NCBI RefSeq assembly: GCF_004010195.1
Contig: NC_057754.1
Location: forward strand, 1,650,823-1,714,822
DNA length: 64,000 nucleotides
Origin: Chiloscyllium plagiosum
Lineage: Eukaryota
Direction: 5' to 3'
Positions 1-62,900 of this stretch are shown piece by piece; within the stretch, counting starts at the first letter, position 1; every line of letters starts with the position of its first letter. Under the pieces are notes generated by a model, which was given only the letters and a program-made list of their open reading frames with translations, had not been told where the DNA came from and did not search any database. A program made the translations under genes and the position numbers.

Positions 1-1116
1 TCACAATTGCCAGCTCTGTTGGTGACCTGGTGGGCCATGATAATAGGCTACATGTGCCAGGTACAGGTTAAGTCTCCAAGCTCTGCTTCATCAACTGCTC
101 TGAGCCCGGGTGGTAGGTATTGGTGTCTCTAGGCTAGTGCATTGATAGATCATGCTGGATTTTCATCCCTAGCAGTGAGTTGCTGGCAGAGTATGCTATA
201 TGGAAAGTACATTATGCTCAGCCATGAATACCTCTGGAGGAATCTACTGAAACTCACAAGGTAAGATTAGGTATGAATGACCTCCATATATACCTGAGTT
301 TTGCTGGCTTCTATGAGCTTCAGCAACTATCATCATCTTCAGGAAAATGAGAAGAGAAACGAGGGAAGAACAAGATAGCAGCCTTCCAGCTTTACTGTAG
401 ACTTGTGTTTTGGTTTTCTGTAATCTTTCAATGGTAACACTGTGAGATTTCATTCTTTAAAGATTCACTGAGCTTGTTAACTGAGAATTAATGAAATTGA
501 AGAGCATGTTATGAATTAGTTGCTCACTTGGATAGGGTTAAATTGGATAGTTCTCAATTCCTATTATTCCCAATCTTCCATTACAGCGAATTAGACTCTC
601 AGGATGTTAGTGAACATTGGAATATGTGATGAAAGAAGGGTCTGACCATATAATTTGGAAATTAATCTTATTTTGAACTGGTCAGTGGTAACTTAGAAGT
701 CAACACACAATGATGAATGAGATGAGCTGTAAATGAGCTGAGCTGGTATAGCACTGTATAGCTGGTGTGGCTTTCTCTGCGGATGCAATTATATCATTTG
801 TGTAGACTTTTTCATTCATCCACAGTGTACTCAACTTACTATGTAAAGGCTGGAAATAAAATGTTGATGTATGCTTTCCTCTAAGGATGTAATGGTTAAA
901 CTTGGTCTCCAATCCATCACCTAGACGTTTTAAATTGCCAGCCAAGTCATTTTTTATGGTCTCCAGAAATGATCTTTAGGTTCAAACAGCTTTAACCTTT
1001 AGTTTGACTGGGATTGCATGTTTTGATGTTACAGCCAGAATTTCAAGAAAAGATTTAAAAATGTGAAATATTTTTTAAGTCTAAAGGACTTGTTGTGGCA
1101 CTTGCATTCTGGTAGT

Positions 1117-1727: not shown

Positions 1728-1817
1728 GCTTCTTGGATGCTGCGTGACCGGCTGTGCTTTTCCAGCACCAGACTTTTCGACTCTGATCTCCAGCATTGCA
1801 GTCCTCACTTTCTCCTT
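1728..1817 (+). mobile_element. Penelope-like element pLTR 3' fragment
   Basis: GGATGCTGC..GCTGTGCTTTTCCAGCACC..GATCTCCAGCA..GCAGTCCTCACTTTCTCCT matches the termini at 19470-19550 and 53095-53180. Confidence 0.75.
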
Positions 1818-16218: not shown

Positions 16219-16809
16219 TTGGCGAGAGTTACGTTGTACTGGTTAACTGAGTTCACAGCAGCACAGATGACCCATATAGGATTATCTAGGAGCTGAACCT
16301 ACCAAAAGTGTTTTACTGTTCCTTTACATCTTTCAGCTTTTAAAAAAAGCTTTTGATGTACAGCACAGTGAACAACTCGACTTGATAGTCCTTCGGTAAT
16401 GCTATATTTCTAAATAGAATTCTATATTATTATGTAACTTTATTTAATTATTGGATGATAAAGTCTGTACGGTATTCCCCCTGCCTTTTTACATTTCACT
16501 GGGAACTAATTCCCAAAGGCATTCTTCATTCAGCTTTTTCATGGAGCTCCACAGGGAACAGATGCATGAGCCTCACTCTGAACGTGGCTTGGGAGAAACT
16601 AAAATTTATATGCACTATGATGTGCAACAAACAGAATGAGAGCAACTCTCTCTTTGTCCACTGCATTCAGCTACTAGTGCATTGTTACTGTTTCACTTAC
16701 AGTCATAGAGATATACAGCACAAAAACAGACCCTTCGGTCCAACTCATCCATGCCGACCAGATATCCTAAATTAATCTAGTCCCATTTGCCAGCACTAGG
16801 CCCATATCC

Positions 16810-17707
16810 AGGAGAAAGTGAGGACTGCAGGGAGATGCTGGAGATCAGAGTCGAAGGGTGTGGTGCTAGAAAAGCAGCATCCATGGAGCAGGAGAATCTA
16901 CATTTCGGGCATTAGCCCTTCATCAGGAATGAGGCTTGTGAGTCAAGGGGGTAGAGAGATAAATGGGAGGGGAGTGGGGCTGGGGAGGAAGGAGGCTGGG
17001 AGTGTGATAGGGAGATGGAGGTTNNNNNNNNNNNNNNNNNNNNNNNNNNNNNNNNNNNNNNNNNNNNNNNNNNNNNNNNNNNNNNNNNNNNNNNNNNNNN
17101 NNNNNNNNNNNNNNNNNNNNNNNNNNNNNNNNNNNNNNNNNNNNNNNNNNNNNNNNNNNNNNNNNNNNNNNNNNNNNNNNNNNNNNNNNNNNNNNNNNNN
17201 NNNNNNNNNNNNNNNNNNNNNNNNNNNNNNNNNNNNNNNNNNNNNNNNNNNNNNNNNNNNNNNNNNNNNNNNNNNNNNNNNNNNNNNNNNNNNNNNNNNN
17301 NNNNGTGAAAATGATAGGTCAGAGATGAGGGTGGAGCAGATAGGTGGGAAGGAAGATGGACAAGTTGGACAGTTCAAGAGGGCGATGCTGGGTTGGAAGG
17401 TTGGGACTGGGTAAGATGGGAGGAGGCGAGATTTCACCAATTTCCCCATTTCAGGTAGGAACCTGTTCATCTTCCTTCCTATCTGCTCCATCCTCCTCTC
17501 TAACAAATCACTTTCACCCCCACCTTCATCTACCTCTCGCATTCCCAGTTGTCTTCCCCCCAATCCCACCCCCCTCCCATTTATCTCTATACACCTTTGG
17601 CTCACAAGTTTCTTTCCTGAAGGGCTTATGCCCGAAATGTCGATTCTCCTGCTGCTCGGGTGCTGCCTGTCTGGTTGTACTTTTCCACCACCTCACTCTT
17701 TGACTCT
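16810..17707. mobile_element. Penelope-like element insertion with inverted pLTR arms (contains assembly gap)
   Basis: Left arm is on the minus strand (AGGAGAAAGTGAGGACTGCAG...) and the right arm on plus; flanked by GGCCCATATCC/GGCCCATCTCC; hammerhead-like motif at 16895-16930 (-). Confidence 0.85.
17024..17304. other. Assembly gap (281 N)
   Basis: Run of N. Confidence 1.
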
Positions 17708-19240: not shown

Positions 19241-19360
19241 TGATACATCCCAATAAGCATACAAGGAAAAGTTAAGGCATTCAGGGGAAGATTAGGTTCT
19301 TTGTTGAAACTTTATTGCTGGAACAGCACAGCAGGTCAGGCAGCATCCAGGGAACAGGAG

Positions 19361-19396
19361 ATTCGACGTTTCGGGCACAGGCCCTTCTTCAGGAAT
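19361..19396 (-). ncRNA. Minimal type I hammerhead ribozyme motif (antisense arm)
   Basis: Reverse complement is identical to the motif at 19420-19455. Confidence 0.8.
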
Positions 19397-19419
19397 TTGT
19401 GTCAGGAATTCAGGAATTC

Positions 19420-19455
19420 ATTCCTGAAGAAGGGCCTGTGCCCGAAACGTCGAAT
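19420..19455 (+). ncRNA. Minimal type I hammerhead ribozyme motif
   Basis: ATTC-CTGAAGA-A-GGGC-ctgt-GCCC-GAAA-CG-TC^GAAT: stem I ATTC/GAAT, CUGANGA core, stem II, GAAA, palindromic ACGT in place of stem III, and a GUC cleavage triplet. Confidence 0.8.
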
Positions 19456-20077
19456 CTCCTGTTCCCTGGATGCTGCCTGACCTGCTGTGCTGTTCCAGCA
19501 ATAAAGTTTCAACTTTGATCTCCAGCATCTGCAGACCTCACTTTCTCCTCGAAGATTAGGTTCTTCCCTACTTGGCAGGATAAAACATGCCTGATTGTTA
19601 TTCACCATCTAGTTTGCACTTACTTGGGAACAGCTTTACTAACTTGCTTTTTGCTGAAGAAATGGTAGGTTATGAATCCAAAGAGTTCTGACAAGAGGTC
19701 ATTGACTTGAAATGCAAACTTTGTTTCTGTCCCCATGGAGGTAAGTACCTCCAGCACTTTTTGTTTATATATCATGAAACCAGAGATGGGGTCAGGAATA
19801 AGAAGAATGGGGGACCAAGCACGACTGCTCTTTCAAAGAGCCAGCCAGAGGCACAATGGACTGAATTGGTAACATTTAAGTATGGGCAGATGGAGCCCTG
19901 TTCTGTTGGGTTTTTTGACTGAGTATCAGTAGGTGGTGAGATAAGCAGGACAATAAATATTCTCTTCAAGTGAAAAGAAAGAAGGAACATATACAGTACA
20001 GTAACATTCTCAGTCTCAGGATAATTCCAAAGTGTTTTACAGCCACTGAAGCATTTTAGAAATATAGCCACTGTTAT

Positions 20078-37182: not shown

Positions 37183-37394
37183 GAGGAGAAAGTGAGGTCT
37201 GCAGATGCTGGAGATCAAAGTTGAAACTTTATTGCTGGAACAGCACAGCAGGTTAGGCAGCATCCAGGGAACAGGAGATTCGACGTTTCGGGCACAGGCC
37301 TGAAGAAGGGCCTGTGCCCGAAACGTCGAATCTCCTGTTCCCTGGATGCTGCCTAACCTGCTGTGCTGTTCCAGCAATAAAGTTTCAACTTTGA
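37183..37394 (-). mobile_element. Young fold-back PLE-derived element with 15-bp TSD
   Basis: 86-bp inverted arms at 37215-37300 and 37309-37394; TSD CTTTGAATATACAGA at 37170-37184 and 37389-37403; hammerhead core at 37300-37331 (+). Confidence 0.92.
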
Positions 37395-52269: not shown

Positions 52270-53180
52270 AGTCAGGAGCAGAAAAATCAATGTTTTGGGC
52301 ATAAGCCCTTCATCTGGAATGAGGCTTGTGGGCCAAGGGGACTGAGGGATAAATGGGAAGGGGGTGGGGCTGAGGGAAAGGTAGCTGGGAATGCAATAGG
52401 TAGATGAAGGTGGAGGTGAAAATGATAGGTCGGAGAGGAGGGTGGAGCAGATAACTGGGAAGGAAGATGGGCAGGTAGGATTTTTCAAGAGGGCGGTGCC
52501 GGCTTGGAAGGTTGGGACTAGGATAAGGTGGGGGAGGGGAAATGGGGAAACTGATTAAATCCACGTTGATTCCGTTTGGTTGGAGGGTCCCAAGGCGGAA
52601 GATGAGGCGCTCTTCCTCCAGGCCTCAGGTGGTTAGGGTTTGGCGTTGGAGGAGGCCCAGGACCTACATGTCCTTGTCCCCTCCCACTCCATCAAGGACA
52701 TGCTGGTGCTGGGCGTCCTCCATTACCAAACCCTAACCACCTGACATCTGGAGGAAGAATGCCTCATCTGCCACCTTGGGACCCTCCAACCACATGGGAT
52801 CAATGTCGATTTCACCAATTTTCTTATTTCCCCTCCCCCCACCTTATCCCAGTCCCAACCTTCCAACCCAGCATTGCCCTCTTGAATGGTTCTGCCTGTC
52901 CATCTTCCTTCCCACTATCTGCTCCACCCTCCTCTCCGACCTATCACTTGCACCCCACCTTCATTTACCTATTGCATTCCCAACTACCTTTCCCCCAGCT
53001 CTACCCCATCCCATTATTTCTCAGCCTCCTTGGCCCACAAGTCTCATTCCTGATGAAGGGCTAATGCAAAAAATGACGATTCTTCTGCTCCTTGAGATGC
53101 TGCCTGACCAGCTGTGCTTTTCCAGCACCACACTCTTTGACTCTGATCTCCAGCATCTGCAGTCCTCACTTTCTCCTCTT
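52270..53180. mobile_element. Penelope-like element 3' part with inversion; GIY-YIG endonuclease C-terminus remnant plus pLTR
   Basis: Plus arm encodes VLGVLHYQTLTT*HLEEECLICHLGTLQPHGINVDF; the minus arm 52270-52670 is an inverted copy; decayed hammerhead motifs at about 52287-52320 and 53047-53081. Confidence 0.88.
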
Positions 53181-58142: not shown

Positions 58143-58510
58143 AATAGAATCCAGACAATGTGGAAAGAGGTCATTCAGAGTAGGACTTGGGGGTACAGTG
58201 AGAGAGGGACTCACTGAGATCTTTGTTGAGTGTGTTGCTGGAAACGCACAGCAGGTCAGGCAGCATCATTGAGTTTGTACTGACCCTCAGAAGAGCATGC
58301 CACCAAAACCCAGCCTCCTACCCAACCTGCAAATCCCTGGTCATTATGGATAAATAGCATTGCCAATCCACCTAATCTGCACATAATTGGACTGTGGGAA
58401 GAAACTGGAACACCCAGTGGAAACTCACGCAGTGAGCTGAGGGAGGAATCAAGCCGGGGTTACTTGTGTGTGATTCAGCAGTGCTAACCACTGAGCCACT
58501 GTGTCGCGCC
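58143..58510 (-). mobile_element. HE1-type SINE (diverged, with an internal insert including a PLE fragment at about 58228-58267)
   Basis: Reverse-complement head at about 58505; GCTGGAAACGCACAGCAGGTCAGGCAGCATC insert. Confidence 0.75.
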
Positions 58511-61900: not shown

Positions 61901-62497
61901 ACACATTTAATAGCCTGAGGAATACAGGGGTATATGACTAAGCAATTATTAAGTTGAGTCTGCACTGCCAGGATTCCGGTCGATATTAGTCACCTAGCAG
62001 TATGCTACACTCTGGTTTTTGATTGTCAGAATTAAACTGGCAGTATGCTGCCAGTATATCCTGCTGCTGTTTTAGAGGGAAACAAATTGTAAGTGCAAGT
62101 GGACAATTGGAAAGGACTTAAAAACAAATGTTTCCAAGCCCTGATTGCTTCATTCATTCCTGAAGCTAATCTGAAGTATATTATCTTTAAGGAACAGTAA
62201 TGATTGTTAAAAATTGGGATGATGAATGTCACAATATAGTTGTCAGTTTTCTTTTATCTTTATACAAAGAATGTTTCCCTTTTGAGCTTTTGCTTTTTAC
62301 TGTAGGGGGATAGGGAAATTAAAGTTTTCCCTATCTCACTGGATATCTTCCTTAGAACACCTCACTTACAGAAATCATAAGGATGGGTGGAGTGACAAAC
62401 AGGACTGTCAAACTGTTTCTGCAATCATGGTTCAGAATTTGTGATTAAGCAGTCTTATTATATATCACTCTCAACATTTTGCATTTATAGCGACTGA

Positions 62498-62900
62498 GGG
62501 AAAGTGAGGACTGCAGATGCTGGAGAATCAGAGTTGAAAAGTGTGGCGCTGGAAAAGCACAGCAGGTCAGGCAGCATCCGAGGAGCAGGAGAGTTAACAT
62601 TTTGGGCATAAGCCCTTCATCAGGCTTGACCCCTTCCCCACATCGCCCTCTTGAACCCTACCTGTCCATCTTCCTTCCCACATATCTGCTCTACCATTCT
62701 TCTGACCTATCACTATCATCCCCATCTGCAGCTACCTATCACCTTGCCAGCTACCTTGCCCCCCACCTCCACCCCGACCCTCCTACTTACCCCTCAGCCC
62801 CCTTCCCCCTGTCCCCCACATTCCAGATGAAGAGATAATGCCCAAAATGTTGACTCTCTTGCTCCTCGGATGCTGCCTGACCTACTGTGCCTTTTCAGTG
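62498..62900. mobile_element. PLE pLTR-derived insertion with inverted arms
   Basis: GGGAAAGTGAGGACTGCAGATGCTGG..CCCTTCATCAGG (-), then a C-rich pLTR and CAGATGAAG..GGATGCTGCCTGACC (+). Confidence 0.85.

What the first reader, a model, noticed from the sequence alone, without database searches (positions are those of the whole stretch)
19287..19565. Fold-back mini-retroelement with an intact minimal hammerhead ribozyme on each strand
Seen: a 248-bp insertion between perfect 15-bp TSDs, made of two perfect 94-bp inverted arms. Each arm carries ATTC-CUGAAGA-A-GGGC(cugu)GCCC-GAAA-CG-UC^GAAU, with a full core, 4-bp stems I and II, an extra A after CUGANGA, and palindromic ACGU instead of stem III. 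Known: Penelope-like element pLTRs carry minimal hammerheads thought to cleave as dimers through a palindromic stem III. Inference: this is a recently mobile, ORF-less, ribozyme-bearing unit. Transcription in either direction gives one hammerhead plus its perfect antisense, so the RNA could self-cleave or be locked in a long hairpin (an ADAR/Dicer substrate).
Basis: partly seen in the sequence, partly recalled or inferred. Interest (0 to 1): 0.8.

Follow-up and report, generated by a model that had tools for sequence, protein, structure and literature searches.

The report
Fold-back stub of a Penelope retroelement
This hairpin-shaped insert is a one-off, head-to-head pair of end pieces from a very young, very abundant Penelope-like jumping gene, a known layout, though its many sister copies suggest how the two halves are made together at each landing.

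Summary
The arms are the pLTR of a young GIY-YIG Penelope-like element (8,801 exact copies of a 54-mer) in a shark-like genome. Inverted pLTR plus tail plus opposite-strand minimal hammerheads is already published, and this scan reported it elsewhere in this genome. The focal junction occurs once, so this copy has not propagated as a unit. Among 70 position-ordered copies, 40 are fresh fold-backs. None has two long arms, 33 short arms end at position 93-96, TSDs are 12-17 bp inside a symmetric GGG…CCC site, and the short arm often reaches further 5' than the long one. Best model: the element's dimer nicks both strands, primes two cDNAs at two internal RNA sites, and joins their ends; possibly one RNA is copied twice. 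Cleavage is unsupported: 5' ends show no excess at the cut site. Side finding: another fold-back of this family has been re-copied about 299 times with at least 1.1 kb of non-coding cargo.

The parts
19287..19301 (+). Left target-site duplication copy; preceded by GGG. Its first 7 bases also match element positions 132-138
19302..19302 (.). One extra T at the short-arm junction
19303..19396 (-). Short inverted arm: pLTR positions 1-94, outer end at the first inferred RT start site
   Evidence: 33 of 40 fresh sister fold-backs end at 93-96
19361..19396 (-). Minimal hammerhead on the minus strand (predicted cut between 19365 and 19364)
   Evidence: and the sequence
19397..19419 (.). Junction spacer, unique in the genome: two re-copies of the last 8 bases of the short arm after 5 unassigned bases, then 2 element bases (positions -1, 0)
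19420..19513 (+). Direct arm: pLTR positions 1-94
19420..19455 (+). Minimal hammerhead on the plus strand, predicted cut 19451/19452
19514..19550 (+). 37-bp PLE tail (positions 95-131), on one side only; ends at the second inferred RT start site
   Evidence: for the known tail
19551..19565 (+). Right target-site duplication copy; followed by CCC
37183..37394 (-). Independent sister fold-back of the same subfamily: different junction, 15-bp TSD, one private variant in both arms

Best explanation
The insert is a dead-end product of one integration event by a young Neptune-like Penelope-like element (PLE). Shown here: the arms are that element's pLTR; the layout is remade at each site; the two outer ends sit at two fixed positions (about 94-96 and 129-139); the duplication is 12-17 bp within a two-fold symmetric GGG…CCC site. 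Shown in vitro for another PLE (PMC11167929): the protein cuts and extends both strands and starts reverse transcription at two internal RNA sites that bound the tail; a dimer is predicted. Inferred: the dimer nicks both strands about 15 bp apart. One nick primes cDNA at about 130-138, the other at about 94. Both run to just upstream of the hammerhead, probably the RNA's start at an initiator-like TCATTC. The two cDNA ends are then joined head to head by microhomology or templated-insertion repair, which gives the unique spacer. The hammerhead is carried uncut, and in a read-through transcript it would be locked in the 94-bp hairpin.
For: Upstream sequence continuous with the arm encodes GIY-YIG above Pfam's cut-off, with relatives that carry RT plus GIY-YIG. 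Focal junction 1 copy; 1,262 head-to-head junctions with varied spacers. Of 70 position-ordered copies, 40 are fresh fold-backs: 0 of 40 have two long arms, 33 of 40 short arms end at 93-96, 36 of 40 have a TSD of 12-17 bp. G at offsets 2 and 3 left of the TSD in 18 and 17 of 35 sites, C at offsets 2 and 3 right in 19 and 17 of 35 (p 4e-5 to 6e-4). The short arm reaches further 5' than the long arm in 25 cases against 9, 6 ties (p 0.009), so it cannot be a snap-back copy of the long-arm cDNA. Older subfamilies show the same layout. Re-copied fold-backs look different: their inverted arm runs on into source flank, not into a TSD.
Against: No biochemistry on this element. The core RT of the young subfamily was not recovered, because long copies read N in the middle. 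The sample is 70 of 8,801 and all from the first 25 Mb of one contig, selected on an exact long-arm 54-mer, so short/short pairs are invisible in it (one was seen). The target preference differs from the ATT preference reported for PAc. The RNA start is inferred only from DNA ends; RNA reads showed no pile-up of ends. Trimming at the junction could blur the nesting test.
Confidence: 0.8

Rival explanations
1. This short fold-back is itself a non-autonomous, self-propagating ribozyme element.
For: Perfect arms and TSD. Fold-back RNA can serve as template: another fold-back has about 299 copies. One simple junction recurs in 20 of 50 listed cases.
Against: Focal junction occurs once. The recurrent 1-nt junction appears in several subfamilies and in both orientations relative to the long arm, so it recurs independently. 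Re-copied fold-backs carry source flank; this one does not.
Confidence: 0.04
2. Head-to-head arms arise by self-priming on an antisense transcript, as proposed for rotifer Penelope elements (PMC3846280).
For: Published interpretation of the same layout. Junctions often overlap at short palindromes. Arms share variants. Reads lie on both strands.
Against: It does not explain why both outer ends sit on fixed sites abutting the TSD. Self-priming predicts one arm nested in the other in a consistent direction; both directions occur, 25 and 9. Many junctions hold non-palindromic or templated inserts, including this one.
Confidence: 0.12
3. Copies are defined by hammerhead cleavage, retrozyme-like (cleaved or circular RNA as template).
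For: Head-to-tail 224-bp tandems with intact motifs exist (L119). Subfamily changes fall in loop II and N7 and spare the core and stem II.
Against: 5' ends within 29-33 (cut at 32/33) number 146, against 88 and 177 in neighbouring 5-base windows. 21 of the 100 listed are explained by stem-I microhomology. Most copies begin about 30 nt upstream of the cut (47 of 70 within -10..14). PAc insertion did not need cleavage.
Confidence: 0.04

Closest known systems
Insertion unit of endonuclease-positive Penelope-like elements: inverted 5'-truncated pLTR plus one-sided tail (PMC3846280; PMC8557442)
   Same: Head-to-head pLTRs, TSD, tail on one side. The rotifer Pen2a inverted pLTR is 37 bp shorter than the full one, as here (94 against 131).
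   Different: No ORF between the arms; TSD 12-17 bp against 8-10 bp in rotifers; thousands of near-identical copies allow statistics.
Minimal hammerheads of metazoan PLEs (PMC4209133)
   Same: Extra base before stem II, G10.1-C11.1 pair, palindrome in place of helix III. Dual motifs 100-700 bp apart on opposite strands are already noted there.
   Different: Stem II is 4 bp, against 7-8 bp in the Schistosoma families; activity untested here.
PAc (Poseidon of Anolis) in vitro mechanism (PMC11167929)
   Same: Two internal RT start sites bounding the tail; both strands cut and extended; predicted dimer; uncut RNA used.
   Different: That work does not explain inverted arms and saw no strand difference in start site. 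Here no fold-back of 40 has two long arms, the target is GGG…CCC rather than ATT, and the linker is Neptune-like.
Animal non-LTR retrozymes (bioRxiv 10.64898/2026.07.22.740005)
   Same: Non-coding, hammerhead-bearing, pLTR-derived.
   Different: Defined as head-to-tail tandems with a motif in each unit; this insert is head-to-head and does not begin at the cut site.
L1 twin priming
   Same: Both nicks prime cDNA, giving an inverted 5' segment inside a TSD.
   Different: L1 arms are adjacent, largely non-overlapping parts of the RNA; here both arms copy the same 94 nt.

Membership tests
EN+ Penelope-like element (derived fragment) | pLTR continuous with an ORF ending in a GIY-YIG endonuclease | tested here: met
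   L118 and L032 run from GIY-YIG (PF01541, 22.8 bits, cut-off 22.6) into the arm sequence at 97-98% identity
EN+ Penelope-like element (derived fragment) | RT domain in the same ORF | tested here: inconclusive
   Core RT of the young subfamily not recovered (N runs). Homologue P0010 has RT plus GIY-YIG; RT-region pieces match in L141 and in an older copy in L117
EN+ Penelope-like element (derived fragment) | Inverted truncated pLTR, one-sided 30-40 bp tail, partial tandems | tested here: met
   partial tandems L057, L060, L119
Neptune clade | Cysteine-rich linker between RT and EN | tested here: met
   C-x4-C-x2-C just before the GIY-YIG domain; criterion from PMC3846280
Neptune clade | RT phylogeny groups with Neptune | not tested
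   no tree built; no core RT sequence in hand
Minimal PLE hammerhead | Core, stems I and II, extra base at 9/10.1, palindrome in place of helix III | tested here: met
Minimal PLE hammerhead | Covariation in stems | tested here: not met
   Within this family stem II is constant apart from scattered point changes, and older subfamilies have a mismatch in stem I
Minimal PLE hammerhead | Self-cleavage as dimer or with protein | not testable with these tools
   needs an assay
Non-LTR retrozyme | At least two head-to-tail units, each with a motif | tested here: not met
   focal insert is head-to-head; the sister locus L119 does have such tandems
Self-propagating non-autonomous family | Multiple dispersed copies with the same internal junction | tested here: not met
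   1 copy

The most novel reading that the evidence does not exclude
The PLE dimer is asymmetric and copies ONE RNA twice. One subunit starts at about 94, the other at about 130 and trails it, displacing the first cDNA (PLE RTs lack RNase H; recalled). This single step would explain the tail on only one end (0 of 40 long/long), variants shared by both arms, the common 5' stop, and the earlier truncation of the long arm (12 against 3 by 10 nt or more). It would settle how PLE inverted structures form. In addition, such fold-backs can found new cargo-carrying families: one moves at least 1.1 kb of non-coding DNA to about 299 sites.
Probability: 0.4. Interest if true: 0.6.

Novelty: new member of a known kind. 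Interest (0 to 1): 0.3.

Why it matters
The locus itself is ordinary. The family is useful: how PLEs form inverted arms and a one-sided tail is called undefined in PMC8557442, and thousands of near-identical insertions give sharp, testable constraints (two start sites used asymmetrically, about 15-bp symmetric nicking, independent arms). The cargo lineage shows a vertebrate PLE dispersing kilobase non-coding DNA very recently. If about half of some 8,800 young copies are perfect hairpins (extrapolated from 40 of 70), the genome holds thousands of potential dsRNA sources; their editing or dicing is not shown.

Tried and rejected
Rfam: no hammerhead family at E<=5; only sub-threshold miRNA-type hairpin hits. 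Excess of 5' ends at the ribozyme cut: not found (146 against 88 and 177; the three patterns differ in letters, so the comparison is rough). Expression: no RNA holder on record was listed. Raw single-cell RNA reads laid on a sister copy (L032, not the focal locus) gave 630 reads in X19 and 0 in X20, on both strands, with no place where many molecules begin or end. A>G appeared at 12 places against T>C at 4 in X19, but 7 against 4 in the large contig set X15, with no matched DNA, so editing is inconclusive. A cap-derived G at junctions was considered and cannot be told from a templated base. Snap-back of the long-arm cDNA: rejected by the nesting test. Full-length young element: two candidate loci read N in the middle. 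Host gene context: 4 of 14 long window ORFs were scanned, with no Pfam hit, so intron or intergenic position is unknown. The 5' limit of the cargo was not determined. Literature searches found no paper on shark PLE fold-backs or on double copying of one RNA; subscription papers are not in that library.

Full report
Numbering. Element position 1 is window 19420; negative positions lie upstream in longer copies.

Observation. The insert is real. Arms 19303-19396 and 19420-19513 are 94 nt and fully complementary, inside a 15-bp direct repeat. The insert is 249 bp: one T, arm, 23-bp spacer, arm, and a 37-bp one-sided tail. The first 7 bases of the repeat match element positions 132-138, so the long end joined through a microhomology. 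Both hammerhead motifs are as described. The core pattern has 3 window hits against 0.06 by chance. The motif alone is not stably folded; the whole insert is one long hairpin.

What it belongs to. The window lies in a 3.56-Gb genome. A 54-mer of the arm and tail occurs 8,801 times exactly; a 33-mer from the ORF end occurs 689 times and a 34-mer from the presumed ORF start 343 times. Longer copies run upstream into an ORF with a cysteine linker and a GIY-YIG domain. The closest proteins are from sharks (77-78% identity; 27 hits among 161 candidates), and more distant ones carry RT plus GIY-YIG. The arm is therefore the pLTR of a young, Neptune-like PLE. The clade rests on the linker only, and the core RT of this subfamily was not recovered.

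Is the fold-back a family? The focal junction occurs once. Head-to-head junctions with both arms reaching position 1 and a spacer of at most 9 nt number 1,262. At least 15 of the 20 that I read belong to older subfamilies with the same layout. For a sample not ranked by similarity I took the first 70 of the 8,801 matches, all on one contig. The script flagged 43 fold-backs. I dropped L043 (a neighbouring old copy) and set aside L036 and L046 (re-copied, see below), leaving 40 fresh ones. Short arms end at 93-96 in 33 of 40 and none passes 101. Long arms end at 129-139, with the lower bound set by my anchor. TSDs of 12-17 bp occur in 36 of 40; lengths include microhomology. Inner ends lie within -10..14 in 47 of 70 long arms and 36 of 40 short arms. 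The 42 fold-backs show 35 junction signatures, and the repeats other than L036/L046 are simple overlaps. The focal spacer holds two re-copies of the last 8 bases of the short arm, which resembles templated-insertion end joining (recalled).

Mechanism. PMC11167929 (parts 1-2 of 4 read) shows that a PLE protein cuts and extends both strands, starts at two internal RNA sites bounding the tail, is predicted to dimerise and does not need ribozyme cleavage. The genomic data fit a two-nick, two-cDNA event. Target sites are two-fold symmetric: G-rich left and C-rich right of the TSD at offsets 1-3 in 35 sites (offset 1 is biased by microhomology). The short arm reaches further 5' in 25 cases against 9, with 6 ties (p 0.009), and 12 against 3 by 10 nt or more (p 0.035). 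It therefore cannot be a copy of the long-arm cDNA. Among 109 flagged pairs, arms share subfamily-diagnostic sites, with one 3-nt exception (L019) apart from an end artefact (L044) and the unrelated neighbours in L043. Four young pairs share a rare variant, while about 30 young pairs have variants on one arm only. Shared variants fit one source, but also gene conversion or recurrence at CpG. With 0 of 40 long/long pairs, the most economical reading is one RNA copied twice, which I rate 0.4; two RNAs from one source remain possible. The published rival, antisense self-priming (PMC3846280, passages and Discussion read), explains neither the fixed outer ends nor two-way nesting well. The common inner end sits at an initiator-like TCATTC (consensus recalled); this is inference from DNA ends only.

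The ribozyme. The motif type and opposite-strand pairs 100-700 bp apart are described in PMC4209133 (parts 1-2 of 4 read), with no monomer and low dimer activity for the motif tested there. Across subfamilies here, changes fall in loop II and N7, which fits constraint, but there is no compensatory change and stem I is imperfect in older subfamilies. 5' ends are not enriched at the cut (146 against 88 and 177). RNA reads gave no end signal and no clear editing.

A fold-back that does propagate. L036 and L046 share a flank-arm junction that occurs 299 times. All 40 scored hits, of 430 candidates, are 100% identical over 1,100 bp, on 10 contigs. Ten copies read all have different right flanks, five forms of inner junction, and outer ends at 126-138 (7) or 94-97 (3). 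Five keep at least 570 bp of cargo and five are truncated; L143 is bounded by a 14-bp TSD and has a new long inverted arm. The cargo is 34% GC, with no ORF over 62 codons wholly inside it and no Rfam match at gathering score. Whether the source is ORF-less or the leader of an autonomous copy is open. Mobilisation of host DNA by pLTRs is known from rotifers.

Comparison with what is known. The layout is canonical (PMC8557442 and PMC8969392, passages). It is not a retrozyme by the tandem definition (bioRxiv 10.64898/2026.07.22.740005, part 1 of 5 and passages). PMC6155905 (passages) added nothing on sharks. No supplements were read; Figs S1-S2 of PMC11167929 could bear on the start-site claims, and the preprint's supplements are closed. 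Earlier scan notes from the same genome reached the same verdict; they are unchecked and came after my reading. None matched the cargo by sequence.

Verdict. Real and ordinary as a locus: a new member of a known kind, interest 0.3. The value lies in the family statistics and in the cargo lineage.

Noticed in passing
L036:1-1559; L046; L140-L147 (299 sites): Very young lineage of at least 1.1 kb of non-coding cargo plus a fold-back pLTR, 100% identical in 40 of 40 scored copies. Four truncated copies are joined upstream to PLE ORF pieces (L046 and L141 by alignment, L144 and L145 by eye), which suggests template jumps.
   Followed up: partly
L119:189-1054: Head-to-tail 224-bp pLTR tandems with a repeated junction and two intact hammerheads in series: the natural substrate for a dimer cleavage test, retrozyme-like.
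   Followed up: partly
L057 and L117:2502-2880: The same partial-tandem junction (about position 235 to -65) at two unlinked sites, so internal junctions are inherited from a source copy.
   Followed up: no
L036, L046, L057, L106, L107: A second cluster of 5' ends at -65 to -71 (5 of 70), and a small one at 13-14, the base of stem II (7 of 70).
   Followed up: no
L017, L033, L064, L127; L005, L054: Two further hammerhead-bearing repeat families with different stem II sequences in the flanks.
   Followed up: no
window 1734-1816, 16807-17022, 17486-17690, 52275-53178, 58196-58267, 62496-62898: Older copies of related PLE subfamilies (67-94% identity); 52275-53178 is an old long-armed fold-back.
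   Followed up: partly
L096: Fresh fold-back with a 135-bp non-element insert between the arms, origin unknown.
   Followed up: no
window 17305-17517: A 47-nt inverted pair, 83% complementary, within an old PLE 3' region.
   Followed up: no
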